Assembly: GCA_965178125.1 (NCBI GenBank)
Contig: OZ237746.1
Span: 1,302,001-1,329,831, forward strand
DNA: 27,831 nucleotides
From: Bilabrum cf. latius
Lineage: Eukaryota
Reading direction: 5' to 3'
Shown piece by piece: positions 1,218-27,831 of this stretch. Made by a program: the position numbers and the translations under genes. Below the pieces are notes generated by a model. That model had not been told where the DNA came from. It was given only the letters and a program-made list of their open reading frames with translations, and searched no databases. Position 1 is the first letter of the stretch; each line of letters starts with the position of its first letter.

Positions 1218-1294
1218 GGGATTCATCGCAAGTTGAATTGCTCACTTTATTCTGCTATATACCCGTATAGGACGTTATGGTCGTGCTGAAAGCC

Positions 1295-8507: not shown

Positions 8508-8702
8508 GCCGCTCCCACCAACCATGTGCTGCCATCCACGGCTCACTCAGCCCTTCCACCGCCGCTCCCACCAACCATGTGCTGCCATCCACGGCTCACT
8601 CAGCCCTTCCACCGCCGCTCCCACCAACCATGTGCTGCCATCCACGGCTCACTCAGCCCTTCCACCGCCGCTCCCACCAACCATGTGCTGCCATCCACGG
8701 CT
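8503..8702. repeat. 53-bp subtelomeric tandem repeat, ~3.8 copies
   Basis: CCACCGCCGCTCCCACCAACCATGTGCTGCCATCCACGGCT recurs at 8503, 8556, 8609 and 8662. Confidence 0.9.
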
Positions 8703-8707: not shown

Positions 8708-8785
8708 TTAGGGTTAGGGTTAGGGTTAGGGTTAGGGTTAGGGTTAGGGTTAGGGTTAGGGTTAGGGTTAGGGTTAGGGTTAGGG
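8708..8785 (+). repeat. Interstitial telomeric tract 1, (TTAGGG)13
   Basis: Perfect TTAGGG repeats. Confidence 0.97.
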
Positions 8786-8979
8786 TATCTGGGGGTCATG
8801 TTAGGATCGGGGCACGCCCTTTTTTGGACCAAAAATAAAAACGCCGCACATTATATATATTTAGATAGCCCTTGATCAGGAGAGTTGATATATGGTTGGT
8901 TGGCGGCACTCATTTCCAATATTGAGCGAGATATGGGGAGGTTTCGGGTCACCAGTTGAGCGGATGATTTTGGCAGGTC
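8786..8979. mobile_element. Short diverged telomere insert (copy 0)
   Basis: Same TTAGGG|TATCT junction as the other inserts, with partial terminal similarity (TATCT..GTCA.G..AGG.TCGGGG). Flanked by telomere tracts. Confidence 0.5.
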
Positions 8980-9387
8980 TTAGGGTTAGGGTTAGGGTTA
9001 GGGTTAGGGTTAGGGTTAGGGTTAGGGTTAGGGTTAGGGTTAGGGTTAGGGTTAGGGTTAGGGTTAGGGTTAGGGTTAGGGTTAGGGTTAGGGTTAGGGT
9101 TAGGGTTAGGGTTAGGGTTAGGGTTAGGGTTAGGGTTAGGGTTAGGGTTAGGGTTAGGGTTAGGGTTAGGGTTAGGGTTAGGGTTAGGGTTAGGGTTAGG
9201 GTTAGGGTTAGGGTTAGGGTTAGGGTTAGGGTTAGGGTTAGGGTTAGGGTTAGGGTTAGGGTTAGGGTTAGGGTTAGGGTTAGGGTTAGGGTTAGGGTTA
9301 GGGTTAGGGTTAGGGTTAGGGTTAGGGTTAGGGTTAGGGTTAGGGTTAGGGTTAGGGTTAGGGTTAGGGTTAGGGTTAGGGTTAGGG
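8980..9387 (+). repeat. Interstitial telomeric tract 2 (~68 units)
   Basis: TTAGGG repeats. Confidence 0.97.
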
Positions 9388-10695
9388 TATCTAATATAAA
9401 GTCAGGGACAGGGTCGGGGAAAAAATATTTTCATCTTCATTTTTTTGTCGAAAATGTGCCCTCTGCGATCTCAGCAACTAGAATAGGTATGAAGATGATT
9501 CAATTTGTTTTGGGACGGCCTAGGGCCATATCATGGGGCAAATGTTCCCCAGGTTCCGTTTTGACCGAGCGGCGACGATACTGGCTGATGAAGATTTACA
9601 TGCCGAAAATGTGCCCTCTGCGATCTCAGCAACTAGAATAGGTATGAAGATGATTCAAACTGTTTTGGGACGGCCTAGGGCCATATCATGGGGCAAATGT
9701 TCCCCAGGTTCCGTTTTGACCGCGCGGCGACGATACTGGCTGATGAAGATTTACATGCCGAAAATGTGCCCTCTGCGATCTCAGCAACTAGAATAGGTAT
9801 GAAGATGATTCAAACTGTTTTGAGACGGCCTAGGGCCATATCATGGGGCAAATGTTCCCCAGGTTCCGTTTTGACCGCGCGGCGACGATACTGGCTGATG
9901 AAGATTTACATGCCGAAAATGTGCCCTCTGCGATCTCAGCAACTAGAATAGGTATGAAGATGATTCAAACTGTTTTGGGACGGCCTAGGGCCATATCATG
10001 GGGCAAATGTTCCCCAGGTTCCGTTTTGACCGCGCGGCGACGATACTGGCTGATGAAGATTTACATGCCGAAAATGTGCCCTCTGCGATCTCAGCAACTA
10101 GAATAGGTATGAAGATGATTCAAACTGTTTTGGGATGGCCTAGGGCCATATCATGGGGCAAATGTTCCCCAGGTTCCGTTTTGACCGCGCGGCGACGATA
10201 CTGGCTGATGAAGATTTACATGCCGAAAATGTGCCCTCTGCGATCTCAGCAACTAGAATAGGTATGAAGATGATTCAAACTGTTTTGGGACGGCCTAGGG
10301 CCATATCATGGGGCAAATGTTCCCCAGGTTCCGTTTTGACCGCGCGGCGACGATACTGGCTGATGAAGATTTACATGCCGAAAATGTGCCCTCTGCGATC
10401 TCAGCAACTAGAATAGGTATGAAGATGATTCAAACTGTTTTGGGACGGCCTAGGGCCATATCATGGGGCAAATGTTCCCCAGGTTCCGTTTTGACCGCGC
10501 GGCGACGATACTGGCTGATGAAGATTTACATGCCGAAAATGTGCCCTCTGCGATCTCAGCAACTAGAATAGCCGTCCCCGTGAAATCTCCCAGAAATTTC
10601 TGGATTCCGGGTCCACATTTGCGACCCAACGACACTCAGGGTCAAATATATCTAAAACAAATGAGTGGAATATAACTATAACCACTAAATAGATT
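9388..10695. mobile_element. Telomere-inserted element copy A1 (non-coding: terminus, 155-bp array, ~124-bp tail)
   Basis: Begins TATCTAATATAAAGTCAGGGACAGGGTCGGGGAAAAAATATTTTCATCTTCA and is flanked by telomere tracts. Confidence 0.75.
9449..10571. repeat. 155-bp satellite subfamily A, ~7.2 units
   Basis: Near-identical units with period 155 (ORF starts at 9533, 9688, 9843 and so on). Confidence 0.95.
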
Positions 10696-11343
10696 TTAGG
10701 GTTAGGGTTAGGGTAGGGTTAGGGTTAGGGTTAGGGTTAGGGTTAGGGTTAGGGTTAGGGTTAGGGTTAGGGTTAGGGTTAGGGTTAGGGTTAGGGTTAG
10801 GGTTAGGGTTAGGGTTAGGGTTAGGGTTAGGGTTAGGGTTAGGGTTAGGGTTAGGGTTAGGGTTAGGGTTAGGGTTAGGGTTAGGGTTAGGGTTAGGGTT
10901 AGGGTTAGGGTTAGGGTTAGGGTTAGGGTTAGGGTTAGGGTTAGGGTTAGGGTTAGGGTTAGGGTTAGGGTTAGGGTTAGGGTTAGGGTTAGGGTTAGGG
11001 TTAGGGTTAGGGTTAGGGTTAGGGTTAGGGTTAGGGTTAGGGTTAGGGTTAGGGTTAGGGTTAGGGTTAGGGTTAGGGTTAGGGTTAGGGTTAGGGTTAG
11101 GGTTAGGGTTAGGGGTTAGGGTTAGGGTTAGGGTTAGGGTTAGGGTTAGGGTTAGGGTTAGGGTTAGGGTTAGGGTTAGGGTTAGGGTTAGGGTTAGGGT
11201 TAGGGTTAGGGTTAGGGTTAGGGTTAGGGTTAGGGTTAGGGTTAGGGTTAGGGTTAGGGTTAGGGTTAGGGTTAGGGTTAGGGTTAGGGTTAGGGTTAGG
11301 GTTAGGGTTAGGGTTAGGGTTAGGGTTAGGGTTAGGGTTAGGG
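10696..11343 (+). repeat. Interstitial telomeric tract 3
   Basis: TTAGGG with variants TAGGG (10714) and TTAGGGG (11109). Confidence 0.97.
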
Positions 11344-11876
11344 TATCTAATATAAAGTCAGGGACAGGGTCGGGGAAAAAATATTTTCATCTTCATTTTT
11401 TTGTCGAAAATGTGCCCTCTGCGATCTCAGCAACTAGAATAGGTATGAAGATGATTCAAACTGTTTTGGGACGGCCTAGGGCCATATCATGGGGCAAATG
11501 TTCCCCAGGTTCCGTTTTGACCGAGCGGCGACGATACTGGCTGATGAAGATTTACATGCCGAAAATGTGCCCTCTGCGATCTCAGCAACTAGAATAGGTA
11601 TGAAGATGATTCAAACTGTTTTGGGACGGCCTAGGGCCATATCATGGGGCAAATGTTCCCCAGGTTCCGTTTTGACCGCGCGGCGACGATACTGGCTGAT
11701 GAAGATTTACATGCCGAAAATGTGCCCTCTGCGATCTCAGCAACTAGAATAGCCGTCCCCGTGAAATCTCCCAGAAATTTCTGGATTCCGGGTCCACATT
11801 TGCGACCCAACGACACTCAGGGTCAAATATATCTAAAACAAATGAGTGGAATATAACTATAACCACTAAATAGATT
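11344..11876. mobile_element. Telomere-inserted element copy A2 (~2.2 units of 155-bp subfamily A, same tail as A1)
   Basis: Both ends are identical to A1. Confidence 0.75.
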
Positions 11877-13249
11877 TTAGGGTTAGGGTTAGGGTAGGGT
11901 TAGGGTTAGGGTTAGGGTTAGGGTTAGGGTTAGGGTTAGGGTTAGGGTTAGGGTTAGGGTTAGGGTTAGGGTTAGGGTTAGGGTTAGGGTTAGGGTTAGG
12001 GTTAGGGTTAGGGTTAGGGTTAGGGTTAGGGTTAGGGTTAGGGTTAGGGTTAGGGTTAGGGTTAGGGTTAGGGTTAGGGTTAGGGTTAGGGTTAGGGTTA
12101 GGGTTAGGGTTAGGGTTAGGGTTAGGGTTAGGGTTAGGGTTAGGGTTAGGGTTAGGGTTAGGGTTAGGGTTAGGGTTAGGGTTAGGGTTAGGGTTAGGGT
12201 TAGGGTTAGGGTTAGGGTTAGGGTTAGGGTTAGGGTTAGGGTTAGGGTTAGGGTTAGGGTTAGGGTTAGGGTTAGGGTTAGGGTTAGGGTTAGGGTTAGG
12301 GTTAGGGTTAGGGTTAGGGTTAGGGTTAGGGTTAGGGTTAGGGTTAGGGTTAGGGTTAGGGTTAGGGTTAGGGTTAGGGTTAGGGTTAGGGTTAGGGTTA
12401 GGGTTAGGGTTAGGGTTAGGGTTAGGGTTAGGGTTAGGGTTAGGGTTAGGGTTAGGGTTAGGGTTAGGGTTAGGGTTAGGGTTAGGGTTAGGGTTAGGGT
12501 TAGGGTTAGGGTTAGGGTTAGGGTTAGGGTTAGGGTTAGGGTTAGGGTTAGGGTTAGGGTTAGGGTTAGGGTTAGGGTTAGGGTTAGGGTTAGGGTTAGG
12601 GTTAGGGTTAGGGTTAGGGTTAGGGTTAGGGTTAGGGTTAGGGTTAGGGTTAGGGTTAGGGTTAGGGTTAGGGTTAGGGTTAGGGTTAGGGTTAGGGTTA
12701 GGGTTAGGGTTAGGGTTAGGGTTAGGGTTAGGGTTAGGGTTAGGGTTAGGGTTAGGGTTAGGGTTAGGGTTAGGGTTAGGGTTAGGGTTAGGGTTAGGGT
12801 TAGGGTTAGGGTTAGGGTTAGGGTTAGGGTTAGGGTTAGGGTTAGGGTTAGGGTTAGGGTTAGGGTTAGGGTTAGGGTTAGGGTTAGGGTTAGGGTTAGG
12901 GTTAGGGTTAGGGTTAGGGTTAGGGTTAGGGTTAGGGTTAGGGTTAGGGTTAGGGTTAGGGTTAGGGTTAGGGTTAGGGTTAGGGTTAGGGTTAGGGTTA
13001 GGGTTAGGGTTAGGGTTAGGGTTAGGGTTAGGGTTAGGGTTAGGGTTAGGGTTAGGGTTAGGGTTAGGGTTAGGGTTAGGGTTAGGGTTAGGGTTAGGGT
13101 TAGGGTTAGGGTTAGGGTTAGGGTTAGGGTTAGGGTTAGGGTTAGGGTTAGGGTTAGGGTTAGGGTTAGGGTTAGGGTTAGGGTTAGGGTTAGGGTTAGG
13201 GTTAGGGTTAGGGTTAGGGTTAGGGTTAGGGTTAGGGTTAGGGTTAGGG
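11877..13249 (+). repeat. Interstitial telomeric tract 4 (~1.37 kb)
   Basis: TTAGGG with a TAGGG variant at 11895. Confidence 0.97.
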
Positions 13250-13310
13250 TATCTATTATAAAGTCAGGGACAGGGTCGGGGAAAAATATTTTCATCTTCA
13301 CTTTTTGACA

Positions 13311-15117
13311 AAATCCTGCGGGATACGATCTCGGCAACCACAGGAGATATGAAGACCGTTCAAATTGCGTTGGGACGGCCTAGGGCCACATCATTGGCCA
13401 AATGTTCCTCAGGTTCCGCTTTTGACGCGCGGCGCCAATATTGGGCCTTGAAGATTTTCATGCTGAAATCCTGCGGGATACGATCTCGGCAACCACAGGA
13501 GATATGAAGACCGTTCAAATTGCGTTGGGACGGCCTAGGGCCACAACATTGGCCAAATGTTCCTCAGGTTCCGCTTTTGACGCGCGGCGCCAATATTGGG
13601 CCTTGAAGATTTTCATGCTGAAATCCTGCGGGATACGATCTCGGCAACCACAGGAGATATGAAGACCGTTCAAATTGCGTTGGGACGGCCTAGGGCCACA
13701 ACATTGGCCAAATGTTCCTCAGGTTCCGCTTTTGACGCGCGGCGCCAATATTGGGCCTTGAAGATTTTCATGCTGAAATCCTGCGGGATACGATCTCGGC
13801 AACCACAGGAGATATGAAGACCGTTAAAATTGCATTGGGACGGCCTAGAGCCACATCATTGGCCAAATGTTCCTCAGGTTCCGCTTTTGACGCGCGGCGC
13901 CAATATTGGGCCTTGAAGATTTTCATGCTGAAATCCTGCGGGATACGATCTCGGCAACCACAGGAGATATGAAGACCGTTCAAATTGCGTTGGGACGGCC
14001 TAGGGCCACATCATTGGCCAAATGTTCCTCAGGTTCCGCTTTTGACGCGCGGCGCCAATATTGGGCCTTGAAGATTTTCATGCTGAAATCCTGCGGGATA
14101 CGATCTCGGCAACCACAGGAGATATGAAGACCGTTCAAATTGCGTTGGGACGGCCTAGAGCCACATCATTGGCCAAATGTTCCTCAGGTTCCGCTTTTGA
14201 CGCGCGGCGCCAATATTGGGCCTTGAAGATTTTCATGCTGAAATCCTGCGGGATACGATCTCGGCAACCACAGGAGATATGAAGACCGTTCAAATTGCGT
14301 TGGGACGGCCTAGGGCCACATCATTGGCCAAATGTTCCTCAGGTTCCGCTTTTGACGCGCGGCGCCAATATTGGGCCTTGAAGATTTTCATGCTGAAATC
14401 CTGCGGGATACGATCTCGGCAACCACAGGAGATATGAAGACCGTTCAAATTGCGTTGGGACGGCCTAGAGCCACATCATTGGCCAAATGTTCCTCAGGTT
14501 CCGCTTTTGACGCGCGGCGCCAATATTGGGCCTTGAAGATTTTCATGCTGAAATCCTGCGGGATACGATCTCGGCAACCACAGGAGATATGAAGACCGTT
14601 CAAATTGCGTTGGGACGGCCTAGGGCCACAACATTGGCCAAATGTTCCTCAGGTTCCGCTTTTGACGCGCAGCGCCAATATTGGGCCTTGAAGATTTTCA
14701 TGCTGAAATCCTGCGGGATACGATCTCGGCAACCACAGGAGATATGAAGACCGTTCAAATTGCGTTGGGACGGCCTAGGGCCACATCATTGGCCAAATGT
14801 TCCTCAGGTTCCGCTTTTGACGCGCGGCGCCAATATTGGGCCTTGAAGATTTTCATGCTGAAATCCTGCGGGATACGATCTCGGCAACCACAGGAGATAT
14901 GAAGACCGTTAAAATTGCATTGGGACGGCCTAGGGCCACATCATTGGCCAAATGTTCCTCAGGTTCCGCTTTTGACGCACGGCGCCAATATTGGGCCTTG
15001 AAGATTTTCATGCTGAAATCCTGCGGGATACGATCTCGGCAACCACAGGAGATATGAAGACCGTTCAAATTGCGTTGGGACGGCCTAGGGCCACAACATT
15101 GGCCAAATGTTCCTCAG
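13311..15117. repeat. 155-bp satellite subfamily B, ~11.7 units
   Basis: Period 155. Shares TTGGGACGGCCTAGG, CAAATGTTCC.CAGGTTCCG and CGCGCGGCG with subfamilies A and C. Confidence 0.95.
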
Positions 15118-15154
15118 ATTCATTGTACTTCATTCAGTGCAAGTATGGCGTATT

Positions 15155-17432
15155 GAAACCTACTCGGGGGAGGTTTCAAAACCTACCCAGGGCGGTTTCA
15201 AAACCTACCCAGGGCGGTTTCAAAACCTACCCAGGGCGGTTTCAAAACCTACCCAGGGCGGTTTCAAAACCTACCCAGGGCGGTTTCAAAACCTACCCAG
15301 GGCGGTTTCAAAACCTACCCAGGGCGGTTTCAAAACCTACCCAGGGCGGTTTCAAAACCTACCCAGGGCGGTTTCAAAACCTACCCAGGGCGGTTTCAAA
15401 ACCTACCCAGGGCGGTTTCAAAACCTACCCAGGGCGGTTTCAAAACCTACCCAGGGCGGTTTCAAAACCTACCCAGGGCGGTTTCAAAACCTACCCAGGG
15501 CGGTTTCAAAACCTACCCAGGGCGGTTTCAAAACCTACCCAGGGCGGTTTCAAAACCTACCCAGGGCGGTTTCAAAACCTACCCAGGGCGGTTTCAAAAC
15601 CTACCCAGGGCGGTTTCAAAACCTACCCAGGGCGGTTTCAAAACCTACCCAGGGCGGTTTCAAAACCTACCCAGGGCGGTTTCAAAACCTACCCAGGGCG
15701 GTTTCAAAACCTACCCAGGGCGGTTTCAAAACCTACCCAGGGCGGTTTCAAAACCTACCCAGGGCGGTTTCAAAACCTACCCAGGGCGGTTTCAAAACCT
15801 ACCCAGGGCGGTTTCAAAACCTACCCAGGGCGGTTTCAAAACCTACCCAGGGCGGTTTCAAAACCTACCCAGGGCGGTTTCAAAACCTACCCAGGGCGGT
15901 TTCAAAACCTACCCAGGGCGGTTTCAAAACCTACCCAGGGCGGTTTCAAAACCTACCCAGGGCGGTTTCAAAACCTACCCAGGGCGGTTTCAAAACCTAC
16001 CCAGGGCGGTTTCAAAACCTACCCAGGGCGGTTTCAAAACCTACCCAGGGCGGTTTCGAAACCTACCCAGGGCGGTTTCAAAACCTACCCAGGGCGGTTT
16101 CAAAACCTACCCAGGGCGGTTTCAAAACCTACCCAGGGCGGTTTCAAAACCTACCCAGGGCGGTTTCAAAACCTACCCAGGGCGGTTTCAAAACCTACCC
16201 AGGGCGGTTTCAAAACCTACCCAGGGCGGTTTCAAAACCTACCCAGGGCGGTTTCAAAACCTACCCAGGGCGGTTTCAAAACCTACCCAGGGCGGTTTCA
16301 AAACCTACCCAGGGCGGTTTCAAAACCTACCCAGGGCGGTTTCAAAACCTACCCAGGGCGGTTTCAAAACCTACCCAGGGCGGTTTCAAAACCTACCCAG
16401 GGCGGTTTCAAAACCTACCCAGGGCGGTTTCAAAACCTACCCAGGGCGGTTTCAAAACCTACCCAGGGCGGTTTCAAAACCTACCCAGGGCGGTTTCAAA
16501 ACCTACCCAGGGAGGTTTCAAAACCTACCCAGGGAGGTTTCAAAACCTACCCAGGGCGGTTTCAAAACCTACCCAGGGCGGTTTCAAAACCTACCCAGGG
16601 CGGTTTCAAAACCTACCCAGGGCGGTTTCAAAACCTACCCAGGGCGGTTTCAAAACCTACCCAGGGCGGTTTCAAAACCTACCCAGGGCGGTTTCAAAAC
16701 CTACCCAGGGCGGTTTCAAAACCTACCCAGGGCGGTTTCAAAACCTACCCAGGGCGGTTTCAAAACCTACCCAGGGCGGTTTCAAAACCTACCCAGGGCG
16801 GTTTCAAAACCTACCCAGGGAGGTTTCAAAACCTACCCAGGGCGGTTTCAAAACCTACCCAGGGCGGTTTCAAAACCTACCCAGGGCGGTTTCAAAACCT
16901 ACCCAGGGCGGTTTCAAAACCTACCCAGGGAGGTTTCAAAACCTACCCAGGGAGGTTTCAAAACCTACCCAGGGAGGTTTCAAAACCTACCCAGGGAGGT
17001 TTCAAAACCTACCCAGGGAGGTTTCAAAACCTACCCAGGGAGGTTTCAAAACCTACCCAGGGCGGTTTCAAAACCTACCCAGGGCGGTTTCAAAACCTAC
17101 CCAGGGCGGTTTCAAAACCTACCCAGGGCGGTTTCAAAACCTACCCAGGGCGGTTTCAAAACCTACCCAGGGCGGTTTCAAAACCTACCCAGGGCGGTTT
17201 CAAAACCTACCCAGGGCGGTTTCAAAACCTACCCAGGGAGGTTTCAAAACCTACCCAGGGCGGTTTCAAAACCTACCCAGGGAGGTTTCAAAACCTACCC
17301 AGGGAGGTTTCAAAACCTACCCAGGGAGGTTTCAAAACCTACCCAGGGAGGTTTCAAAACCTACCCAGGGAGGTTTCAAAACCTACCCAGGGAGGTTTCA
17401 AAACCTACCCAGGGAGGTTTGAAACCTACCCT
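15155..17432. repeat. 22-bp minisatellite (GGTTTCAAAACCTACCCAGGG[C/A]), ~100 units
   Basis: Direct tandem array without spacers. Confidence 0.97.
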
Positions 17433-17697
17433 AGGTGTGGGTTTGGGAATCCAGTGGTTATTGACCGATATTCAATGTTGTGGCTCGTTCTACGTAGCCA
17501 TATGTATGCGTTAACCTCCTTGGTCGATACATCGCTTTGACATCAGGTATTCGTTGGCTTATAGTCAAGACTAAATAGATTGCGTCCTGGCTCCTACTAT
17601 CCCGTCCTAACGGGTCACTGGCTGGCACTCTGGCAAGCTCCTCTCACAAGCTGGCCCAGCTGCCACTGACCTCAATTGGTATCCGCCTGGCTGCTTT

Positions 17698-19233
17698 TCA
17701 CTCGTTATCGGAGGAGGGTTCCGCATCGACAGCTGCCAGGAGCGCCTCAACAGCGTCCACGTCTGCTGCATTGAGATCTCCTTCCGCCGTCTTCTCGAGG
17801 GCCGTCATCAGGCCTACGAGCGTGCCCAACCCGTCGTCCCTCTCTTGAATTGTTTCCTGCACGTCCTCGAGCATGTCGTCGAGAGTTCGGCTGACGCCCA
17901 GCGCTATGTCATCGCAGGCAGCGAGGATGCGGTCCACCAGGTGCCGCTGCTAGTCGGTGAAGCCGTTGTCATCCACTCCACCGTCGTTCTCAGAGTCGTC
18001 TTGCTGGTTCTGGGCCTCGTTCTCTTCTTCCTCATCCAGCTCGTCCTGATCCTCCTCGTCCTGCTGCACGAGTTCTATCGGAGCCTCATCCTCGTCCTCT
18101 TCATCGGCTGCGTCTGCGTGGTATCGATCACCGATCTCCTCTTCATCCTCCTCAGAGTCCTGTCGAGGCAGTGATGCTGCTGCTCCACTCCTTGCGCCTC
18201 TTGCTCCCCTCTTGTCCTGGCCAACGGCGTGGCGAGCTCCTCCGCCATAGCCCGGTTGGAGAATGGGCGATCGCTTGTGCTGTATCTTAGCCCGAGGTGC
18301 CGCTTCAGTCGCCTTCCTGCGCTCCGGTTCTGCCGGTTGCGCACCTTCATCCCTCGGCTTTCCCTTTGACTTTCCCTTTGACTTGCCCGCGGCCTTGGTC
18401 CTGGCCTTCAATTTGGCCTTTGCCTTTTCCCTGGCCTTGGCCTCCGCTCTCCGCTTGGGGCCGAGTAGGTCGTTGTTCAGTCGCTCGGTCTATGAGTCGC
18501 TGGACTCTGAGCCGTCTGAATCTTGCTCGCCTCGTTTCCTCTGGGCCTTGTAGGCACTGTGGTCCGCGACACCGTCGTCGGGGTCGTCCTCGTCGTCGTC
18601 GACCATGGCACTCCGTTTGTCCTTGCCAGCACGGGGTGCTCCACTCGGCGAAGCAGCAGCGGCTCCCGCAGAAGCATCTTGGTCCCCTGCGGCTGCCGCG
18701 GCAGAGTCCTTGACTGCCATGTCAAACACGTCTTGGAACACAGCCTGCATGCCTCCACGCGCACGCACAGAGGCTTTCCCAGCTCCGTAGTCGCAGACGA
18801 ACTTGATCGCGGTCTTGTAGTTCCTCCGCAAGCCATCCATGCCTGCCTTGAACCAAGGATTGTGGCTGGTAGAGTAGCCGCTGTCGCGCAGGCCCATGAG
18901 CATCTAATTCATCTTGCGGTAGCCTGGCGAGCTGGTGCCGCTAGTTGATGCAGCCGGATATAGGCGGTGACTCAGCACCTTCAGCATGTCAGGCGGCAGA
19001 TCGGACTCATTCAGGTCCAGCATGGCATCCACGCAGGCTTTGATGCCCTCTTTCTTGGTCCCCTAGTAGTGCTCGGTAGACCCGCAGAGTAACCCGCAAT
19101 CTTGGTGGAGGCCCACGAGGGAGATCAGCAGGACTTGCTTGGCAGCAGACGTGCTGACGCCTGAAGCCAGGGCAGCCACGACGGGGCGGGAGGCCTTGGT
19201 GTGCTTGACGCTGTAGCTCTTTGCGGCGGCCAT
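17698..19233 (-). CDS. Element ORF1, 511-aa hypothetical protein with Lys/Ala-rich and Asp/Glu-rich tracts; TAG=Gln
   Basis: ATG at 19233 (MAAAKSYSVK), in-frame TAGs at 19063, 18904, 18490 and 17950, TGA at 17698. The frame is preserved in diverged copies C1 and C2. Confidence 0.75.
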
Positions 19234-19442
19234 AGTACTCTGCGGTGCTGGGGGAACACGGGTAAGGCCACGAACAGGCGCTTGGATGCGGCAGCGAACA
19301 CGGACATGAGACCCAGGGAGTCTCCAGGGCAAGCTCGAGGGCAAAGAAAAAGAAGGCCACGACCCCGCGCACTCGGTCTCAGACCCGGGACCCATGATGT
19401 TAGGTCGATCCCCCAGTCGTGGGGGGGCGGACCCCAGCCCAG

Positions 19443-19457
19443 AAAAAAATTAAAAAA
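19443..19457 (-). terminator. Putative Pol III terminator (TTTTTTAATTTTTTT)
   Basis: T runs start 3 nt after the tRNA-like sequence. Confidence 0.55.
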
Positions 19458-19460
19458 GAT

Positions 19461-19540
19461 CGCCCCAACGGGAATCGAACCTCGGGGGTAGGCCTGGGTG
19501 CGATTACCAACCGTACGCAATACCACTACACCACCACAGC
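19461..19540 (-). ncRNA. tRNA-like or pseudo-tRNA Pol III unit (nominal anticodon GGT)
   Basis: A box TGGTGTAGTGG, B box GGTTCGATTCC, 7-nt loop TTGGTAA and downstream T6/T7 runs. Acceptor and T stems pair poorly. Confidence 0.6.
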
Positions 19541-20114
19541 AACCCACGCGAAACCGAAAAAAAAATACAGATTCGCATCAAAAGTGCACGCAACTTGCAC
19601 TTGTCACGCCGAAACCTACCCGTTCACCCAACGAGCAGCGCGAAATCAGAAACACTCATATTGCGCTCCTTGTATTCAATTGCAGAGGCGCATACTTGGC
19701 ATATAGCTACTATAGCATATTGTGCATACAACCCTAAAGCAAACGTGAGTCAAATCGATGGGGTATGCGTGGGGATTGCCTTGCGCAATGCGCTTGCTGC
19801 AACGTGGTTCAGACGTTTGGCTCAATTGCGCGACGGCAAGCACTCGTTGGAACTAATCTCGCGCATATTATCAAATAATATAACATACTGCAAACAATTG
19901 CGCGGCGATATATAGGCTGCGCGCCCAATGCTCACTTTGCTTGCGGCAGGTGTGCTGCGACAACATTTGTGGTGGCCCGGATCAGGTTGCGGAACCTGAT
20001 GCGCGGCACCGCCGTGACGAGTGCGCCACCAGGGAACAACGCATCGTACCATCATACTAATCACATCCCAAGTATATTATATATCCTTGTGGCATCTCTG
20101 TCCGCAGTCTGGTC

Positions 20115-22370
20115 ATGGCGCAGTCCACGTACGACGCCACCAAGCATGTGAAGGCTCTCGACTACCTTCGGGCCTTCCTGGACCGCCGCGCGAAGGGCTA
20201 CGCTCAGAACCCGCATCGCGTGCGCATCGGAGTCCCAGGGCCACTTCAACCAGGAGGTGCCGCCCTGCCTGGCCCGCCGGCCGGCGAGGCGCAGGCCCAG
20301 ATCCCGGCCCAGGTGGGGCCAGCGCCAGGCGGCCATGCCGCCGGGGGGGGCGATGCGGCAGGCCTGCCGGCCCCCGCCCCAGCCATCGGCGAGCATGCTC
20401 CGGAGCCCCAGCACCAGCAGCAAGAGGGCGCCCACCAACCACCACCTGGTGCAGCTCTTGCTGCTGGCCAGCAGGCGATGGCCGCCGCCCCGCCCCAGCA
20501 CCCCGCTGGTCCGGGTGCCAACCTGCCGGTCCCAGGAGGCTTGCAGCCCGAGCCGCCAGCTGGCGATGCCGACGCCTTCCTCCCGATCCCGGAGCCCCAG
20601 CAGGAGCCTGCAGGTGGGCCAGCCGGCGTCGGTCCGGCCCCTCCAGCAGCCGAGCAGCAGCCAGCTGCCCAGGCTGCCCAGCACCAACTCGTCCCTGGGC
20701 CCGTGCCTCTCGCCGAGGTGCCCGTCCTGGCCGGGGTCGGCGCAGGGGAGGACGCGATGGAGGACGACGAGCCCCCAGAAGCGGTCCAGGCCATCTTCCT
20801 CGGGCGCCAAGCCGCCCACGCGGCCACCCAGGCAGCTCGGCAGGCCATGGTCTGGGATGCTCAGGGCCAGCAGCCGCTCTTCGGGGCAGAGGGAGGAGCG
20901 CCCGAGCTGCCCATCCCCGGAGTCGTGTTCGCTGCCGGTGCAGAGGCAGCCGGCGCCCAAGGCGGTGGCGCAGGCCCAGACGCCGGAGGGGAGGTCGGTG
21001 CGCCACCCGTGCAGGCGTGGAACCTGGTCGTCGGCGACCCGGGGGGAGCGCAGGGAGAGGAGGCCCTGGCCGTCAACCTCCCGCCCGAGTACCGGTTCGG
21101 CATGCACGAGGCGACGGACGACCTCGCGCAGCACCCCATGCTGGCCTACCACATATGGGAGGTGGACGACGAGGCGGTGCAGGCCCTGCAGGGCCTGCTG
21201 ACCTGCGTTGGCAGGCAGGAGCTGCCTCCCGAGGTGTGGAGGGCGCTCGCACCTCCAGTGATGGAGACGGTGACCATGCAAGGCATGCGGCGCTGGTGGG
21301 CGTACCAGAGGCGCGCCGTTGTCGTCGTGGACAGCCTCCTGCATGCCGAGACTGATGCTGCCGGCGTGGAGCAGCGCGCGCAGAGGCGCGGCCGCTTTCT
21401 CGTGCAGCTCGTTGGCTGGACTGACATCACCAAGATGCTGGAGAGCGAAGACCTGAACGAGGAAGGGGCTGCCTTCATTCGGAGCAAGCTGGCTTCGGTG
21501 GCGGTCAGCTTCTGGCCGTCTCCGATGCTGGCGGAGCCCGGGCTGCACAGCCACAAGCTCTCTCCGCTCCGCACGGAGTGGGATCACTACATCGAGTACA
21601 ACCGCGTGGACGAGACGGTCTTTGACGCGGTCGGGCTCTCCGAGCAGCCTCCAGCGTTCGTGTACGAGGACGAGGACGAGGACGAGATGGAGGAGGGGCC
21701 GGCGGCGCAGCCGGCTGGGGCGGAGGAGCATGCAGAGGGCGACGAAGATGCCGGGTATGAGGCTGGAGAAGGCGAGTGGGGTGGGGAAGGCCAGTGGGAC
21801 TCGGACGGAGACCAAGGCGGCGACGAGGAAGCGGATGGTGGAGATCCTGCCGCGGGGGCTTTCGGAGCTGCGGATGCCGAGCTGGAAGGCGAGCCTGAAG
21901 AGGAGCAGGAGGCCGCCCCGGATGTGCTGCGGAACCCACCAGACGGCATGGCGGCCCCCGTGGCGGTCCGCTCTGAGCTCTCCGATGTCGACGCCATGGA
22001 GGTGGTCGGGATCCTAGCCGGCGCCGGAGCCTCCCAGGAGGTGCAGACCAGCCCGTTCATGCTGGTGCTTGGGGGGCCGGTGTCACGGCTCCTGCTGGAC
22101 GAGCCGCTGGACCAAGCCTACGGCCTCATCGACGTGCTGATTGGAGCCGACTCGGCGACGCAGGATGGGGTCCTCTGCGGGCGCAGGGGTCTGCAGAGGG
22201 ACGGGGGGCAGATCAGGGTGCAGTCGGCCACGCAGCAGCACCAGCGCACCGAGGTGGAGACGAGCGGCTCATCCAGGCCCCGGCTCGGCTACAGCATCGT
22301 CTTCAACCGGCACATCCCCACGTAGGAGCGGGACAATCCCGGCACGCCGAGGACTCACGGCGCGTACTAC
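20115..22370 (+). CDS. Element ORF2, >750-aa hypothetical protein (P/A/Q/G-rich N-terminus, globular core, acidic tract), truncated by telomere
   Basis: 736-codon GC-rich ORF. TAG at 22323 reads through to ERDNPGTPRTHGAYY and then TTAGGG. A TATATTATATAT stretch lies ~30-40 nt upstream of the ATG. Confidence 0.75.
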
Positions 22371-22647
22371 TTAGGGTTAGGGTTAGGGTTAGGGGTTAGG
22401 GTTAGGGTTAGGGTTAGGGTTAGGGTTAGGGTTAGGGTTAGGGTTAGGGTTAGGGTTAGGGTTAGGGTTAGGGTTAGGGTTAGGGTTAGGGTTAGGGTTA
22501 GGGTTAGGGTTAGGGTTAGGGTTAGGGTTAGGGTTAGGGTTAGGGTTAGGGTTAGGGTTAGGGTTAGGGTTAGGGTTAGGGTTAGGGTTAGGGTTAGGGT
22601 TAGGGTTAGGGTTAGGGTTAGGGTTAGGGTTAGGGTTAGGGTTAGGG
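22371..22647 (+). repeat. Interstitial telomeric tract 5
   Basis: TTAGGG with one TTAGGGG variant near 22389. Confidence 0.97.
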
Positions 22648-22708
22648 TATCTAATATAAAGTCAGGGACAGGGTCGGGGAAAAAATATTTTCATCTTCAC
22701 TTTTTGTC

Positions 22709-23469
22709 AAAAATATGCAACATAGGATCTCGGTAACCACAGGAGATATGAAGACCGTTGAAACTGCATTGGGACGGCCTAGGTGCACAACATTGGCCAA
22801 ATGTTCCCCAGGTTCCGTTTCTGCCGCGCGGCGCCAATATGGGCCAATGAAGATTTGCATGCTGAAAATATGCAACATAGGATCTCGGCAACCACAGGAG
22901 ATATGAAGACCGTTGAAACTGCATTGGGACGGCCTAGGTGCACAACATTGGCCAAATGTTCCCCAGGTTCCGTTTCTGCCGCGCGGCGCCAATATGGGCC
23001 AATGAAGATTTGCATGCTGAAAATATGCAACATAGGATCTCGGTAACCACAGGAGATATGAAGACCGTTGAAACTGCATTGGGACGGCCTAGGTGCACAA
23101 CATTGGCCAAATGTTCCCCAGGTTCCGTTTCTGCCGCGCGGCGCCAATATGGGCCAATGAAGATTTGCATGCTGAAAATATGCAACATAGGATCTCGGCA
23201 ACCACAGGAGATATGAAGACCGTTGAAACGGCATTAGGACGGCCTAGGTGCACAACATTGGCCAAATGTTCCCCAGGTTCCGTTTCTGCCGCGCGGCGCC
23301 AATATGGGCCAATGAAGATTTGCATGCTGAAAATATGCAACATAGGATCTCGGCAACCACAGGAGATATGAAGACCGTTGAAACTGCATTGGGACGGCCT
23401 AGGTGCACAACATTGGCCAAATGTTCCCCAGGTTCCGTTTCTGCCGCGCGGCGCCAATATGGGCCAATG
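22709..23469. repeat. 155-bp satellite subfamily C, ~4.9 units
   Basis: Period 155. Confidence 0.95.
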
Positions 23470-23736
23470 GTGAAGTTGATGTCTACATGAATTGCGTTGT
23501 TTGTGTATTGAAAGTATTGGTGGAGATGGCATTGCATTTGATTTATGGATTGTTTTGATATGAGGTACTGATTGGCTTACAGTCAAGACGAAGGGTTGGG
23601 CTAACCGAAACCCTCATACTGCGTCCTAACGGGTCACTGGCCGACACATTGGCAAACCCCTCTCACAAGCTGGCCCAGCAGCCACTGATCTCATGTGCCA
23701 TTCTTCTGGCTGGCTCTCACTTCGCCTGGCTGCTTT

Positions 23737-24045
23737 TCACTCGTCATCGGAGGAGGGTTCCGCACCGACAGCTGCCAGGAGCGCCTCCACAGCGTCCACG
23801 TCTGCCGCATTGAGATCTCCTTCCGCCGTCTTCTCGAGGGCCGTCATCAGGTCTGCGAGCATGCCCAATCCCTGGTCCCTCTCTTGAATTGTTTCCTGCA
23901 CGTCCTCGACCATGTCGTCGAGAGTCCGGCTGACGCCCAGCGCGGTGTCATCGCAGGCAGCGAGGATGCGGTCCACCAGGTGCCGCTGCTAGTCGGTGAA
24001 GCCATTGTCCTCCACTCCACCGTCGTTCTCAGAGTCGTCTTGCTG
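23737..24045 (-). pseudogene. 5'-truncated ORF1 paralog fragment
   Basis: DRILAACDDTALGVSRTLDDM... matches the ORF1 C-terminus. No start, cut by telomere. Confidence 0.8.
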
Positions 24046-24090
24046 TTAGGGTAGGGGTTAGGGGGGGGTAGGGGGTTTAGGTTAGGGTTA

Positions 24091-24121
<31 letters not shown>

Positions 24122-24729
24122 GGTTAGGGTTAGGGTTAGGGTTAGGGTTAGGGTTAGGGTTAGGGTTAGGGTTAGGGTTAGGGTTAGGGTTAGGGTTAGG
24201 GTTAGGGTTAGGGTTAGGGTTAGGGTTAGGGTTAGGGTTAGGGTTAGGGTTAGGGTTAGGGTTAGGGTTAGGGTTAGGGTTAGGGTTAGGGTTAGGGTTA
24301 GGGTTAGGGTTAGGGTTAGGGTTAGGGTTAGGGTTAGGGTTAGGGTTAGGGTTAGGGTTAGGGTTAGGGTTAGGGTTAGGGTTAGGGTTAGGGTTAGGGT
24401 TAGGGTTAGGGTTAGGGTTAGGGTTAGGGTTAGGGTTAGGGTTAGGGTTAGGGTTAGGGTTAGGGTTAGGGTTAGGGTTAGGGTTAGGGTTAGGGTTAGG
24501 GTTAGGGTTAGGGTTAGGGTTAGGGTTAGGGTTAGGGTTAGGGTTAGGGTTAGGGTTAGGGTTAGGGTTAGGGTTAGGGTTAGGGTTAGGGTTAGGGTTA
24601 GGGTTAGGGTTAGGGTTAGGGTTAGGGTTAGGGTTAGGGTTAGGGTTAGGGTTAGGGTTAGGGTTAGGGTTAGGGTTAGGGTTAGGGTTAGGGTTAGGGT
24701 TAGGGTTAGGGTTAGGGTTAGGGTTAGGG
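24046..24729 (+). repeat. Interstitial telomeric tract 6, first ~60 bp degenerate
   Basis: TAGGGG, TTAGGGGGGGG, TTTAGG and TTAGG variants, then perfect repeats. Confidence 0.95.
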
Positions 24730-24790
24730 TATCTAATATAAAGTCAGGGACAGGGTCGGGGAAAAAATATTTTCATCTTCACTTTTTGTC

Positions 24791-25551
24791 AAAAATATGC
24801 AACATAGGATCTCGGTAACCACAGGAGATATGAAGACCGTTGAAACTGCATTGGGACGGCCTAGGTGCACAACATTGGCCAAATGTTCCCCAGGTTCCGT
24901 TTCTGCCGCGCGGCGCCAATATGGGCCAATGAAGATTTGCATGCTGAAAATATGCAACATAGGATCTCGGCAACCACAGGAGATATGAAGACCGTTGAAA
25001 CTGCATTGGGACGGCCTAGGTGCACAACATTGGCCAAATGTTCCCCAGGTTCCGTTTCTGCCGCGCGGCGCCAATATGGGCCAATGAAGATTTGCATGCT
25101 GAAAATATGCAACATAGGATCTCGGCAACCACAGGAGATATGAAGACCGTTGAAACTGCATTGGGACGGCCTAGGTGCACAACATTGGCCAAATGTTCCC
25201 CAGGTTCCGTTTCTGCCGCGCGGCGCCAATATGGGCCAATGAAGATTTGCATGCTGAAAATATGCAACATAGGATCTCGGCAACCACAGGAGATATGAAG
25301 ACCGTTGAAACTGCATTGGGACGGCCTAGGTGCACAACATTGGCCAAATGTTCCCCAGGTTCCGTTTCTGCCGCGCGGCGCCAATATGGGCCAATGAAGA
25401 TTTGCATGCTGAAAATATGCAACATAGGATCTCGGCAACCACAGGAGATATGAAGACCGTTGAAACTGCATTGGGACGGCCTAGGTGCACAACATTGGCC
25501 AAATGTTCCCCAGGTTCCGTTTCTGCCGCGCGGCGCCAATATGGGCCAATG
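24791..25551. repeat. 155-bp satellite subfamily C, ~4.9 units
   Basis: Period 155. Confidence 0.95.
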
Positions 25552-25818
25552 GTGAAGTTGATGTCTACATGAATTGCGTTGTTTGTGTATTGAAAGTATT
25601 GGTGGAGATGGCATTGCATTTGATTTATGGATTGTTTTGATATGAGGTACTGATTGGCTTACAGTCAAGACGAAGGGTTGGGCTAACCGAAACCCTCATA
25701 CTGCGTCCTAACGGGTCACTGGCCGACACATTGGCAAACCCCTCTCACAAGCTGGCCCAGCAGCCACTGATCTCATGTGCCATTCTTCTGGCTGGCTCTC
25801 ACTTCGCCTGGCTGCTTT

Positions 25819-26577
25819 TCACTCGTCATCGGAGGAGGGTTCCGCACCGACAGCTGCCAGGAGCGCCTCCACAGCGTCCACGTCTGCCGCATTGAGATCT
25901 CCTTCCGCCGTCTTCTCGAGGGCCGTCATCAGGTCTGCGAGCATGCCCAATCCCTGGTCCCTCTCTTGAATTGTTTCCTGCACGTCCTCGACCATGTCGT
26001 CGAGAGTCCGGCTGACGCCCAGCGCGGTGTCATCGCAGGCAGCGAGGATGCGGTCCACCAGGTGCCGCTGCTAGTCGGTGAAGCCATTGTCCTCCACTCC
26101 ACCGTCGTTCTCAGAGTCGTCTTGCTGGTTCTGGGCCTCGTTCTCTTCTTCCTCATCCAGCTCGTCCCCATCCTCCTCGTCCTGCTGCATGAGCCCTATC
26201 GGAGCTTCATCCTCGTCCTGCTCTCTGGCTGCGTCTGCGTCGTACCGACCACGGATCTCCTCTTCATCTTCGTCAGAGTCCTGTCGAGGCAGTGATGCTG
26301 CTGCTCCACTCCTTGCGCCACTTGCTCCCCTCTTCTCCTGGTCATCGGCGCGGCGAGCTCCTCCGCCATAGCCCGGCTGGAGGACGGACGTTCGTTCGGG
26401 CTGCCTCTTAGCCCTAGGCGCGGCTCCAGCCGCCTTCCGGCCCTTCGGTTCTGGCGGTTGGGTACCCACATCCCTCGACTTGCTCTTGGACTTGCCCTTG
26501 GGCTTGCCCGTCGACTTTCCCGCAGCCTTTGCCCGAGCCTCGGCCTTGGCCTTAGCCTTTTCCCTCGCCTTGGCTTC
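25819..26577 (-). pseudogene. 5'-truncated ORF1 paralog (C-terminal ~250 codons)
   Basis: Collinear with 17698 to ~18445. Retains the TAG at 26071 and ends at TGA 25819. Confidence 0.8.
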
Positions 26578-27831
26578 GGGTTAGGGTTAGGTTAGGGTTT
26601 TAGGTTAGGGTTAGGGTTAGGGTTAGGGTTAGGGTTAGGGTTAGGGTTAGGGTTAGGGTTAGGGTTAGGGTTAGGGTTAGGGTTAGGGTTAGGGTTAGGG
26701 TTAGGGTTAGGGTTAGGGTTAGGGTTAGGGTTAGGGTTAGGGTTAGGGTTAGGGTTAGGGTTAGGGTTAGGGTTAGGGTTAGGGTTAGGGTTAGGGTTAG
26801 GGTTAGGGTTAGGGTTAGGGTTAGGGTTAGGGTTAGGGTTAGGGTTAGGGTTAGGGTTAGGGTTAGGGTTAGGGTTAGGGTTAGGGTTAGGGTTAGGGTT
26901 AGGGTTAGGGTTAGGGTTAGGGTTAGGGTTAGGGTTAGGGTTAGGGTTAGGGTTAGGGTTAGGGTTAGGGTTAGGGTTAGGGTTAGGGTTAGGGTTAGGG
27001 TTAGGGTTAGGGTTAGGGTTAGGGTTAGGGTTAGGGTTAGGGTTAGGGTTAGGGTTAGGGTTAGGGTTAGGGTTAGGGTTAGGGTTAGGGTTAGGGTTAG
27101 GGTTAGGGTTAGGGTTAGGGTTAGGGTTAGGGTTAGGGTTAGGGTTAGGGTTAGGGTTAGGGTTAGGGTTAGGGTTAGGGTTAGGGTTAGGGTTAGGGTT
27201 AGGGTTAGGGTTAGGGTTAGGGTTAGGGTTAGGGTTAGGGTTAGGGTTAGGGTTAGGGTTAGGGTTAGGGTTAGGGTTAGGGTTAGGGTTAGGGTTAGGG
27301 TTAGGGTTAGGGTTAGGGTTAGGGTTAGGGTTAGGGTTAGGGTTAGGGTTAGGGTTAGGGTTAGGGTTAGGGTTAGGGTTAGGGTTAGGGTTAGGGTTAG
27401 GGTTAGGGTTAGGGTTAGGGTTAGGGTTAGGGTTAGGGTTAGGGTTAGGGTTAGGGTTAGGGTTAGGGTTAGGGTTAGGGTTAGGGTTAGGGTTAGGGTT
27501 AGGGTTAGGGTTAGGGTTAGGGTTAGGGTTAGGGTTAGGGTTAGGGTTAGGGTTAGGGTTAGGGTTAGGGTTAGGGTTAGGGTTAGGGTTAGGGTTAGGG
27601 TTAGGGTTAGGGTTAGGGTTAGGGTTAGGGTTAGGGTTAGGGTTAGGGTTAGGGTTAGGGTTAGGGTTAGGGTTAGGGTTAGGGTTAGGGTTAGGGTTAG
27701 GGTTAGGGTTAGGGTTAGGGTTAGGGTTAGGGTTAGGGTTAGGGTTAGGGTTAGGGTTAGGGTTAGGGTTAGGGTTAGGGTTAGGGTTAGGGTTAGGGTT
27801 AGGGTTAGGGTTAGGGTTAGGGTTAGGGTTA
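26578..27831 (+). repeat. Terminal telomere (TTAGGG)n, probable chromosome end
   Basis: G-rich strand runs 5'->3' to the end of the window. Confidence 0.92.

What the first reader, a model, noticed from the sequence alone, without database searches (positions are those of the whole stretch)
8786..26577. Head-to-tail chain of a telomere-targeted element with a fixed proximal end and variably truncated, telomere-capped distal ends
Seen: inserts at 9388, 11344, 13250, 22648 and 24730 start with the same ~60 bp, in the same orientation and TTAGGG register. Distal ends differ, and B, C1 and C2 stop inside ORFs (22370, 24045, 26577) before a new TTAGGG tract. Inference: the chromosome 3' end repeatedly primes copying of an element template, synthesis stops or erodes, and telomerase re-caps it. 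This polarity resembles Athena/Terminon PLEs, MoTeR, HeT-A/TART or yeast Y', but the cargo (two satellites, divergent ORFs, tRNA-like unit) matches none I recognise. No mobilising enzyme is in the window.
Basis: partly seen in the sequence, partly recalled or inferred. Interest (0 to 1): 0.9.

Follow-up and report, generated by a model that had tools for sequence, protein, structure and literature searches.

The report
Stacked telomere-capped subtelomeric blocks at chromosome end
This chromosome end carries six head-to-tail copies of one subtelomeric DNA block, each starting at the same base after a run of telomere repeats and most cut short and re-capped, a layout best explained by telomere-primed DNA copying plus telomerase healing, not by a self-sufficient jumping gene.

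Summary
The window ends in a terminal (TTAGGG)n array. Each insert follows a perfect TTAGGG tract of 78-1373 bp, and the junction is always TTAGGG|TATC. B, C1 and C2 end inside reading frames once TAG is read as a sense codon, as the host genes require.

The mobile-retroelement reading is only partly supported.
- A1 and A2 share their distal junction and the same irregular first telomere repeats, so they are a DNA-level duplicate.
- None of the 22 ORFs scanned has an RT or nuclease domain.
- There is no ribozyme, poly(A) or stable 3' fold.
- The cargo is a divergent pair of orphan genes, one with a GT..AG intron.

My best reading (0.55) is Y'/TALT-like break-induced copying from internal telomere tracts, with terminal truncation and telomerase healing. 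A trans-mobilised telomere-primed retroelement stays open (0.25). Its main support is that the first 52 nt are identical between subfamilies whose next 163 nt are only 74.5% alike. Genome-wide chromosome-end data, which I could not get, would decide.

The parts
8708..8785 (+). T0: first internal (TTAGGG)13 tract, added to a break inside the 53-bp satellite
8786..8979 (+). A0: 194-bp relic insert. It starts TATC and has a diverged head (TATC..TCGGGG). It is truncated and capped.
8980..9387 (+). T1: perfect (TTAGGG)68
9388..10695 (+). A1: head, 155-bp satellite x7.2 and a 124-bp tail ending ...AAATAGATT
10696..11343 (+). T2: tract starting (TTAGGG)3 TAGGG, the same scar as T3
11344..11876 (+). 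A2: duplicate of A1 (99.5% identical) with 2.2 satellite units and the same distal junction
11877..13249 (+). T3: tract starting (TTAGGG)3 TAGGG, then 225 perfect units
13250..22370 (+). B: longest copy (9121 bp), truncated at 22370
13250..13301 (+). 52-nt head of B (50/53 identical to A and C). It contains the telomere-like hexamers TCAGGG ACAGGG TCGGGG.
13311..15121 (.). 155-bp satellite, 11.7 units (86% identical to the C type, 77% to the A type)
15156..17431 (.). 22-bp satellite, 103 units; absent from C1 and C2
17698..19233 (-). ORF1: orphan protein (511 aa from the first ATG, 4 in-frame TAG, TGA stop). dN/dS is 0.40 against the C2 copy.
19458..19542 (-). Degenerate tRNA-like sequence followed by T-runs (weak)
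19745..20107 (+). GT..AG intron (363 nt) in the 5' leader of ORF2. It is missing from one contig of run X6.
   Evidence: (table 5)
20115..22370 (+). ORF2: G+C-rich (GC3 0.80) orphan frame, 752 codons, open into the telomere tract. A 97% identical paralogue is P0001.
22371..22647 (+). T4 tract
22648..24045 (+). C1: head, 155-bp satellite x4.9 and the 3' part of the ORF1 homologue, truncated at 1398 bp
24046..24729 (+). T5 tract; its first ~55 nt are irregular repeats
24730..26577 (+). C2: differs from C1 at 3 of 1398 bases and runs 450 bp further into the ORF1 homologue
26578..27831 (+). T6: terminal telomere array with an irregular start, running to the window end

Best explanation
This is a true chromosome end on which copies of one subtelomeric block have been stacked by DNA-templated, telomere-primed copying, with telomerase healing in between. 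The proposed cycle has four steps.
1. A telomeric G-strand 3' end pairs with an internal TTAGGG tract that already precedes the block on a sister chromatid, a homologue or another chromosome end.
2. Break-induced replication or D-loop extension copies from that tract through the head and on to the donor's end. The junction TTAGGG|TATCT is therefore inherited unchanged.
3. Terminal loss or breakage inside a block is healed by telomerase. This gives arbitrary distal ends followed by irregular first repeats.
4. The new telomere can start the cycle again.

The block itself is not a self-sufficient transposon. It consists of a 52-nt head, two satellites and a divergently transcribed pair of lineage-specific genes.

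Shown: the anatomy, the junction identities, the A1/A2 duplicate with its shared scar, the existence of longer copies elsewhere, and the lack of recognisable mobilising domains.

Inferred: BIR as the copying process, telomerase as the capping enzyme, and the identity of the donors.
For: - A1|T2 and A2|T3 share the distal junction and the same tract start, (TTAGGG)3 TAGGG. This unit was therefore duplicated as DNA, together with its healing scar. The same criterion was used to call BIR/D-loop events in MoTeR arrays (PMC7367193, passages).
- All 6 tract-to-insert junctions are identical and in register, as expected when the junction is copied rather than re-made.
- Distal junctions lie at unrelated sequences. 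T5 and T6 begin with irregular repeats, as expected of de novo addition.
- No RT, endonuclease, helicase or polymerase domain in 22 frames. No Rfam family. No T-run at the head.
- ORF2 lies antisense to any minus-strand template. It has its own leader intron with GT..AG ends, which is skipped in one X6 contig.
- ORF1 and ORF2 sequences occur with other flanks in four public runs. The loose ends at 17615, 18966 and 20297 are absent from the window. The cargo is therefore a gene family not confined to this element.
- Contigs of X1 and X2 run 1993 nt beyond 22370 (records 8 and 16), so longer donor copies exist.
- The head is identical in A and C, but B differs from both. In the satellites, B and C are the closer pair. 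This incongruence is what exchange between copies would give.
- Precedent: C. elegans TALT blocks flanked by telomere-like tracts are copied in tandem onto telomeres (PMC4595603, passages).
Against: - Passive BIR does not predict that the first 52 nt are 52/52 identical between A and C while the next 163 nt are 74.5% identical (P about 2e-5 under even divergence). It needs an added assumption: gene conversion spreading from the tract and stopping at an indel.
- The origin of the first tract-to-head junction is unexplained.
- C2 is longer than the more internal C1, so its donor must lie outside this window and was not seen.
- No genome, no long reads across the tracts and no other chromosome end could be examined. 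An RT encoded elsewhere cannot be excluded.
- ORF1 and ORF2 were compared by sequence only, not by fold.
Confidence: 0.55

Rival explanations
1. Telomere-primed retrotransposition of a non-autonomous element family. A minus-strand RNA whose 3' end is the complement of the head is reverse-transcribed from the chromosome's G-strand 3' OH, by an RT encoded elsewhere or by telomerase itself. Incomplete synthesis leaves 5'-truncated copies that telomerase caps. The 52-nt head is the recognition tail shared by the subfamilies.
For: - The polarity and register fit: a fixed end towards the centromere and variable ends outwards.
- C1 and C2 differ at only 3 of 1398 bases yet stop at different points.
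- Copy lengths are skewed to short: 194, 533, 1308, 1398, 1848 and 9121 bp.
- The head is 52/52 identical between subfamilies whose adjoining sequence is 74.5% identical. This resembles the shared 3' tails of partner elements.
- ORF1 lies in the sense of that RNA and is under some constraint (omega 0.40).
- Terminons also carry varied cargo and are 5'-truncated by telomeric repeats (PMC6431247, passages).
Against: - No RT or EN in 22 frames.
- No hammerhead or other Rfam match.
- No poly(A) complement at the junction.
- In 4 of 4 folds, the putative RNA 3' end folds no better than shuffles.
- A1/A2 are DNA duplicates.
- The RNA would need about 4.4 kb of satellite as its 3' region and an antisense, intron-bearing gene.
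- The ORF1/ORF2 pair also occurs in other flanks.
Confidence: 0.25
2. Circle-based or unequal-exchange amplification only. Recombination between two tracts releases a circle of one element plus one tract, which is re-integrated or copied by rolling circle. Alternatively, sister chromatids exchange unequally within tracts. Either way, identical units multiply with no copying from other chromosome ends.
For: A1 and A2 are the same unit with the same distal scar, and differ only in satellite copy number and tract length. Rolling-circle and D-loop routes are discussed for identical MoTeR units (PMC7367193, passages).
Against: It cannot produce C2, which is longer than C1. It also cannot produce three subfamilies plus A0 in one chain. 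At most it explains the A1/A2 step.
Confidence: 0.08
3. Assembly artefact: telomere-bearing reads from several chromosome ends were chained through their TTAGGG tracts.
For: No read spanning a tract could be examined.
Against: - The tracts are only 78-1373 bp, short compared with typical long reads.
- All six junctions have the same orientation and register.
- Every head needs a real tract-to-head junction somewhere.
- The irregular repeats sit only at tract starts.
Confidence: 0.05

Closest known systems
C. elegans TALT (template for ALT) blocks, Seo et al. 2015 (PMC4595603; passages read)
   Same: A block of ordinary genomic DNA, including part of a gene, is flanked by telomere-like tracts in one orientation. 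It is copied in tandem into telomeres by a recombination-based route.
   Different: TALT amplification was seen in telomerase-deleted survivors, and the units are whole. Here telomerase-type capping is evident, the units are truncated at different points, the tracts are long and perfect, and three subfamilies share one head.
Yeast Y' elements and type I survivors (recalled; mentioned in PMC4595603 passages, and in the abstract start of PMC13177704 in the listing)
   Same: A subtelomeric element carrying ORFs lies in head-to-tail arrays separated by internal telomere tracts and is spread between ends by recombination.
   Different: Y' units have two defined ends and encode a helicase. Here the distal ends are arbitrary and the ORFs match no family.
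MoTeR arrays in Magnaporthe oryzae telomeres (PMC7367193; passages read)
   Same: - TTAGGG telomeres with head-to-tail arrays and interstitial telomere tracts.
- Telomere repeats at every 3' terminus.
- 5'-truncated copies capped by telomere.
- Array growth by BIR/D-loop, recognised by shared truncation points and variant repeats.
   Different: MoTeR1 encodes an RT, the variant repeats sit at the distal (5') end, and the interstitial tracts are at most about 18 repeats. Here no RT is seen, the telomere-like hexamers sit in the proximal head, and the tracts have 13-229 repeats.
Athena/Terminon EN-deficient Penelope-like elements of bdelloid rotifers (PMC6431247; passages read)
   Same: Large telomeric elements with varied cargo ORFs, mostly 5'-truncated by telomeric repeats, in head-to-tail arrays, attached by the 3' end to G-rich overhangs.
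   Different: Terminons encode an RT and end in a hammerhead ribozyme motif followed by reverse-complement telomeric repeats. Neither the RT nor the ribozyme was found here.
Stacked relic chromosome ends / subtelomeric duplicons with internal (TTAGGG)n islands
   Same: Blocks capped by relic telomere repeats lie behind the present telomere, all in one orientation.
   Different: There the tracts are short and decayed, and the blocks begin at different sequences. Here the tracts are long and perfect, and every block begins at the same base.
Zepp LINE-like elements at a Chlorella telomere (recalled; only a search listing seen)
   Same: Telomere repeats are added directly to 5'-truncated element copies at a chromosome end.
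   Different: Zepp is a poly(A) retrotransposon with an RT. There is no poly(A) complement or RT here.

Membership tests
Penelope-like EN-deficient telomeric elements (Athena/Terminon) | Encodes a PLE-type reverse transcriptase | tested here: not met
   0 of 22 element frames have any RT domain in Pfam. B is truncated, and the 1993 nt that longer copies carry beyond 22370 could not be read.
Penelope-like EN-deficient telomeric elements (Athena/Terminon) | Hammerhead ribozyme motif at the 3' end, followed by reverse-complement telomeric repeats | tested here: not met
   No Rfam family in the whole window at gathering score, nor at E<=1 around the heads. Folds of the minus-strand terminus are no better than shuffles. 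Only degenerate C-rich hexamers lie 14 nt inside the end.
Penelope-like EN-deficient telomeric elements (Athena/Terminon) | Head-to-tail copies, 5'-truncated and capped by telomeric repeats | tested here: met
Telomere-specific non-LTR retrotransposons (HeT-A/TART, SART/TRAS, Zepp) | Poly(A) tail at the junction facing the centromere | tested here: not met
   All heads start TATCTAATATAAAG, not a T-run.
Telomere-specific non-LTR retrotransposons (HeT-A/TART, SART/TRAS, Zepp) | gag-like and/or EN-RT ORFs in the sense of the template RNA | tested here: not met
   ORF1 (sense) has no Pfam family and no homologue in two large protein libraries apart from paralogue fragments. Its fold was not examined.
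MoTeR | RT-encoding master copy, with variant telomere-like repeats at the 5' (distal) end | tested here: not met
   No RT. Distal ends are arbitrary unique sequence.
Recombination-amplified telomere-flanked blocks (Y', TALT) | Block flanked by telomere tracts in one orientation, in tandem at the chromosome end | tested here: met
Recombination-amplified telomere-flanked blocks (Y', TALT) | Units duplicated as DNA together with their flanking tract features | tested here: met
   A1|T2 and A2|T3 share the junction and the (TTAGGG)3 TAGGG start. This is shown for this one pair only.
Recombination-amplified telomere-flanked blocks (Y', TALT) | The same units and scars shared between different chromosome ends; dependence on recombination genes | not testable with these tools
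   No genome is held for this window. No related locus was found in the collections.

The most novel reading that the evidence does not exclude
The inserts are three subfamilies of a new, non-autonomous telomere-primed element. Its only shared cis requirement is the 52-nt terminus next to the telomere tract. It is copied onto chromosome 3' ends by an enzyme not encoded in the element: an unrecognised RT or telomerase itself. The organism reads TAG as a sense codon. This would be a telomere-specific mobile element without any of the known hallmarks (RT, ribozyme, poly(A)).
Probability: 0.25. Interest if true: 0.85.

Novelty: new variant of a known kind. Interest (0 to 1): 0.55.

Why it matters
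If the DNA-copying reading holds, this is a natural, apparently telomerase-proficient genome in which ALT-like copying of a telomere-flanked block, terminal truncation and telomerase healing have alternated at least five times at one chromosome end. The internal tracts left behind, up to 1.4 kb long, are still perfect. That makes the organism a natural system for studying how recombination-based and telomerase-based end maintenance coexist, and how subtelomeric gene families spread.

If the conserved 52-nt head proves to be a cis-acting site, it would point to a sequence-specific way of adding DNA to telomeres that none of the known telomeric element families uses.

Tried and rejected
- Whole genome: none is held for this window, so no other chromosome end could be checked.
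- Head pattern: 0 matches in JGI metagenome contigs and in prokaryote genome contigs.
- ORF2 as a protein query found no locus in metagenome or viral contigs. The unique part of B has no match in the phage collection.
- Earlier notes of this scan: nothing for this genome or for the head sequence.
- ORF1: no hit among 8000 scored candidates. Its N-terminal 188 aa were scored against 1.84 billion representatives. That gave only an 87-aa paralogue fragment (P0002) and one repeat protein at E 3.8e-05, which I take as spurious.
- ORF2: its only hit is the 97% identical, frameshifted paralogue P0001.
- ORF1 and ORF2 were not compared by language-model features or by predicted structure, so a fold-level relation to a polymerase, nuclease or capsid protein remains untested.
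- RNA evidence: no RNA holder is listed on record. X6 is of uncertain kind. It has no cover at 17432-17596 or at 19247-19576, and I draw nothing from those gaps.
- None of the 22 loose ends listed is telomeric. However, 21 more were not shown and human-like (TTAGGG) reads are filtered out, so this says nothing about other capped truncation points.
- Considered and set aside: telomerase reading through its template boundary into its own RNA. This would give a fixed head of fixed length. However, the head-to-satellite junction is homologous in all subfamilies, so the head was not added separately each time.
- Considered and set aside: endonuclease-mediated insertion into an existing array (SART/TRAS style). 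The distal tracts start with irregular repeats at arbitrary sequence instead of continuing the array.
- The literature searches turned up comparators only. No supplementary files were consulted.


Full report
**What is there**

The window is a chromosome end. Bases 1 to about 8300 carry ordinary genes:
- a helicase C-terminal part (AAA_12) on the + strand;
- a full-size ABCG-type transporter on the minus strand, in two overlapping frames;
- a family-2 glycosyltransferase on the minus strand.

These genes are open only if TAG is read as a sense codon. They carry 26 in-frame TAGs, and 4 of 4 checked frames end in TGA. The three minus-strand frames have no in-frame TAA.

After two short satellites (75 bp and 53 bp, 8317-8702), the rest of the window alternates between (TTAGGG)n tracts and inserts. 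There are seven tracts, all G-rich on the + strand, and the last runs to the end of the window.

**The inserts**

| Insert | Coordinates | Content |
|---|---|---|
| A0 | 8786-8979 | diverged relic |
| A1 | 9388-10695 | head, 155-bp satellite x7.2, tail |
| A2 | 11344-11876 | as A1, with 2.2 satellite units |
| B | 13250-22370 | longest copy (see below) |
| C1 | 22648-24045 | head, satellite x4.9, 3' part of ORF1 homologue |
| C2 | 24730-26577 | as C1, 450 bp longer |

All are in one orientation.
- A1 and A2 are 99.5% identical.
- C1 and C2 differ at 3 of 1398 bases.
- B is 86% identical to C in the head and 155-bp satellite. It is 84-85% identical in the part behind the satellites (B 17536-18444).
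- C lacks the 22-bp satellite.
- A is about 77% identical to B and C.

B holds, in order:
- the head;
- 11.7 units of the 155-bp satellite;
- 103 units of the 22-bp satellite;
- ORF1 on the minus strand;
- a degenerate tRNA-like stretch;
- ORF2 on the + strand, which is still open where the telomere tract begins at 22371.

**Check of the observation**

The five named inserts begin with the same sequence. A 43-nt pattern spanning the junction matches 5 times (4 exact, 1 with one mismatch), against none in 100 shuffles. All 6 tract-to-insert junctions, including A0, read TTAGGG|TATC.

The distal ends of B, C1 and C2 fall inside reading frames. The C2 copy of ORF1 keeps its frame up to the telomere junction. 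Over 248 aligned codons against B it gives dN 0.088, dS 0.222 and omega 0.40. ORF1 therefore is, or recently was, a constrained coding sequence.

The tRNA-like unit is weak. I rate the observation as confirmed, with two additions: the relic A0, and the fact that A1 and A2 share their distal end.

**Evidence that bears on mechanism**

1. *A1/A2 are a DNA duplicate.* A1 and A2 end at the same base (...AAATAGATT). The tracts that follow both open with (TTAGGG)3 TAGGG before becoming regular. Two independent truncation-and-capping events would not give this. The unit was duplicated as DNA, scar included.

2. *The caps look newly made.* The tracts after C1 and C2 open with irregular repeats (for example TTAGGGTAGGGGTTAGGGGGGGG...). 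The sequences before the tracts are unrelated to each other. This fits de novo telomere addition at arbitrary ends. By contrast, the distal end of every tract is perfect and in one register.

3. *No mobilising function is recognisable.*
   - ORF1 and ORF2 have no Pfam family.
   - Twenty further frames gave only one sub-threshold DUF465 match in an alternative frame. In all, 22 of the 84 frames of at least 80 aa listed were scanned. Most of the unscanned frames are repeats of the satellite frames.
   - ORF1 has no homologue among 8000 scored candidates. Its N-terminal domain finds only a paralogue fragment among 1.84 billion representatives.
   - ORF2 finds only a 97% identical, frameshifted paralogue.
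   - No Rfam family is present.
   - The head does not begin with a T-run.
   - The minus-strand terminus folds no better than shuffles in 4 of 4 cases.

4. *The cargo looks like host genes.* One contig of run X6 skips 19745-20107 with GT..AG ends, just upstream of the ORF2 start codon. X6 is of uncertain kind. The contig is therefore either a spliced + strand mRNA or a processed copy. Either way, ORF2 has its own intron and runs antisense to any minus-strand template.
   - ORF1 and ORF2 sequences also occur with other flanks in four runs. Loose ends at 17615, 18966, 20297 and elsewhere are not found in the window.
   - Contigs of X1 and X2 continue 1993 nt beyond 22370, so B is a truncated version of a longer block present in related genomes.

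5. *The head is unusually conserved.* Its first 52 nt are 52/52 identical between A and C, while the next 163 nt are 74.5% identical (P about 2e-5 under even divergence). B differs from both at 3 positions, although B and C are the closer pair elsewhere.

**Interpretation**

Points 1 to 4 favour a DNA-level process of the kind described for three known systems:
- yeast Y' arrays;
- C. elegans TALT blocks (PMC4595603, passages);
- part of MoTeR array dynamics, where shared truncation points and variant repeats were the criteria for BIR and D-loop events (PMC7367193, passages).

In this reading, a telomeric 3' end invades an internal tract that precedes the block on another molecule and copies to that molecule's end. 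Truncation and telomerase healing then create new ends, and the cycle repeats. This explains four features:
- the inherited junction and register;
- the shared A1/A2 scar;
- the irregular caps;
- the absence of an enzyme.

It requires donors outside the window. C2 is longer than C1, so it cannot have been copied from C1.

Point 5 is the main difficulty. A passive passenger needs no conserved terminus. Conversion spreading from the perfectly homologous tract into the head, and stopping at the T-run indel at position 53, would explain both the sharp boundary and the incongruent pattern (A equals C, B differs). This is an added assumption.

The alternative is that the head is a cis-acting recognition tail shared by non-autonomous retroelement subfamilies. 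It fits the polarity, the near-identical C1/C2 with different stops, and the excess of short copies. It resembles Terminons in cargo and truncation (PMC6431247, passages). However, it fails the tested defining features of every known telomeric retroelement family.

I put the odds as follows:

| Reading | Odds |
|---|---|
| DNA-templated copying with healing | 0.55 |
| RNA-templated copying | 0.25 |
| Circle or unequal-exchange amplification alone | 0.08 |
| Misassembly | 0.05 |

**Comparison and novelty**

The layout belongs to a known kind: telomere-flanked blocks stacked at chromosome ends. Earlier notes of this scan describe short, decayed versions in another protist (e1-682752; not tested here).

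Four features set this case apart:
- the number of stacked units;
- the length and purity of the internal tracts (13 to 229 repeats);
- three subfamilies plus a relic sharing one start base;
- the conserved 52-nt head.

I class it as a new variant of a known kind.

**Limits**

- No genome, other chromosome end or read spanning a tract was available.
- The sequence beyond 22370 could not be read.
- ORF1 and ORF2 were compared by sequence only.
- The papers were read as passages found by term search, not in full. Y', Zepp and the human duplicon literature are recalled or known only from listings and earlier notes.

Noticed in passing
window 3-8141 (host genes), e.g. 1295-4798 (-): TAG is a sense codon in this organism. 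There are 26 in-frame TAGs across four Pfam-supported frames, 4 of 4 checked frames end in TGA, and the three minus-strand frames have no in-frame TAA. One TAG sits where ABCG proteins, as I recall them, have Gln (..RETLqFAA..). This hints at Gln but does not prove it. The status of TAA is open.
   Followed up: partly
window 4507-4798: The ABCG transporter is split into two overlapping minus-strand frames (4507-6021 and 1295-4798). This implies a short intron or a frameshift between its first nucleotide-binding domain and first membrane domain.
   Followed up: no
window 8317-8702: Two further satellites (75 bp x2.5 and 53 bp x4.2) lie directly before the first telomere tract. The native chromosome appears to have been broken inside the 53-bp array and capped.
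   Followed up: no
window 20115-22370: ORF2 is far more G+C-rich (about 70%; GC1 0.81, GC3 0.80) than the host genes (about 55%). Several other long frames are open across it on both strands. The coding strand is supported mainly by the intron joint just upstream of its ATG.
   Followed up: partly
window 18057-18584: One X6 contig replaces this low-complexity middle part of ORF1 with 25 other letters. A shorter ORF1 variant therefore exists in a related organism (table 5c).
   Followed up: no
window 17432-22370 in runs X1, X2, X4, X6: The unique part of B is held at 0.81-0.92 of sampled words by runs labelled as two different organisms, with only 1-3 differing letters in about 1.9 kb of ORF2. 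The block is thus nearly identical across differently labelled sources. I did not pursue whether these are strains or species.
   Followed up: no
window 9388-9448 vs 9449-9603: The end of the head (TTCATCTTCA) is the reverse complement of a motif (TGAAGATGA) that recurs in each 155-bp satellite unit. Its significance is unknown.
   Followed up: no
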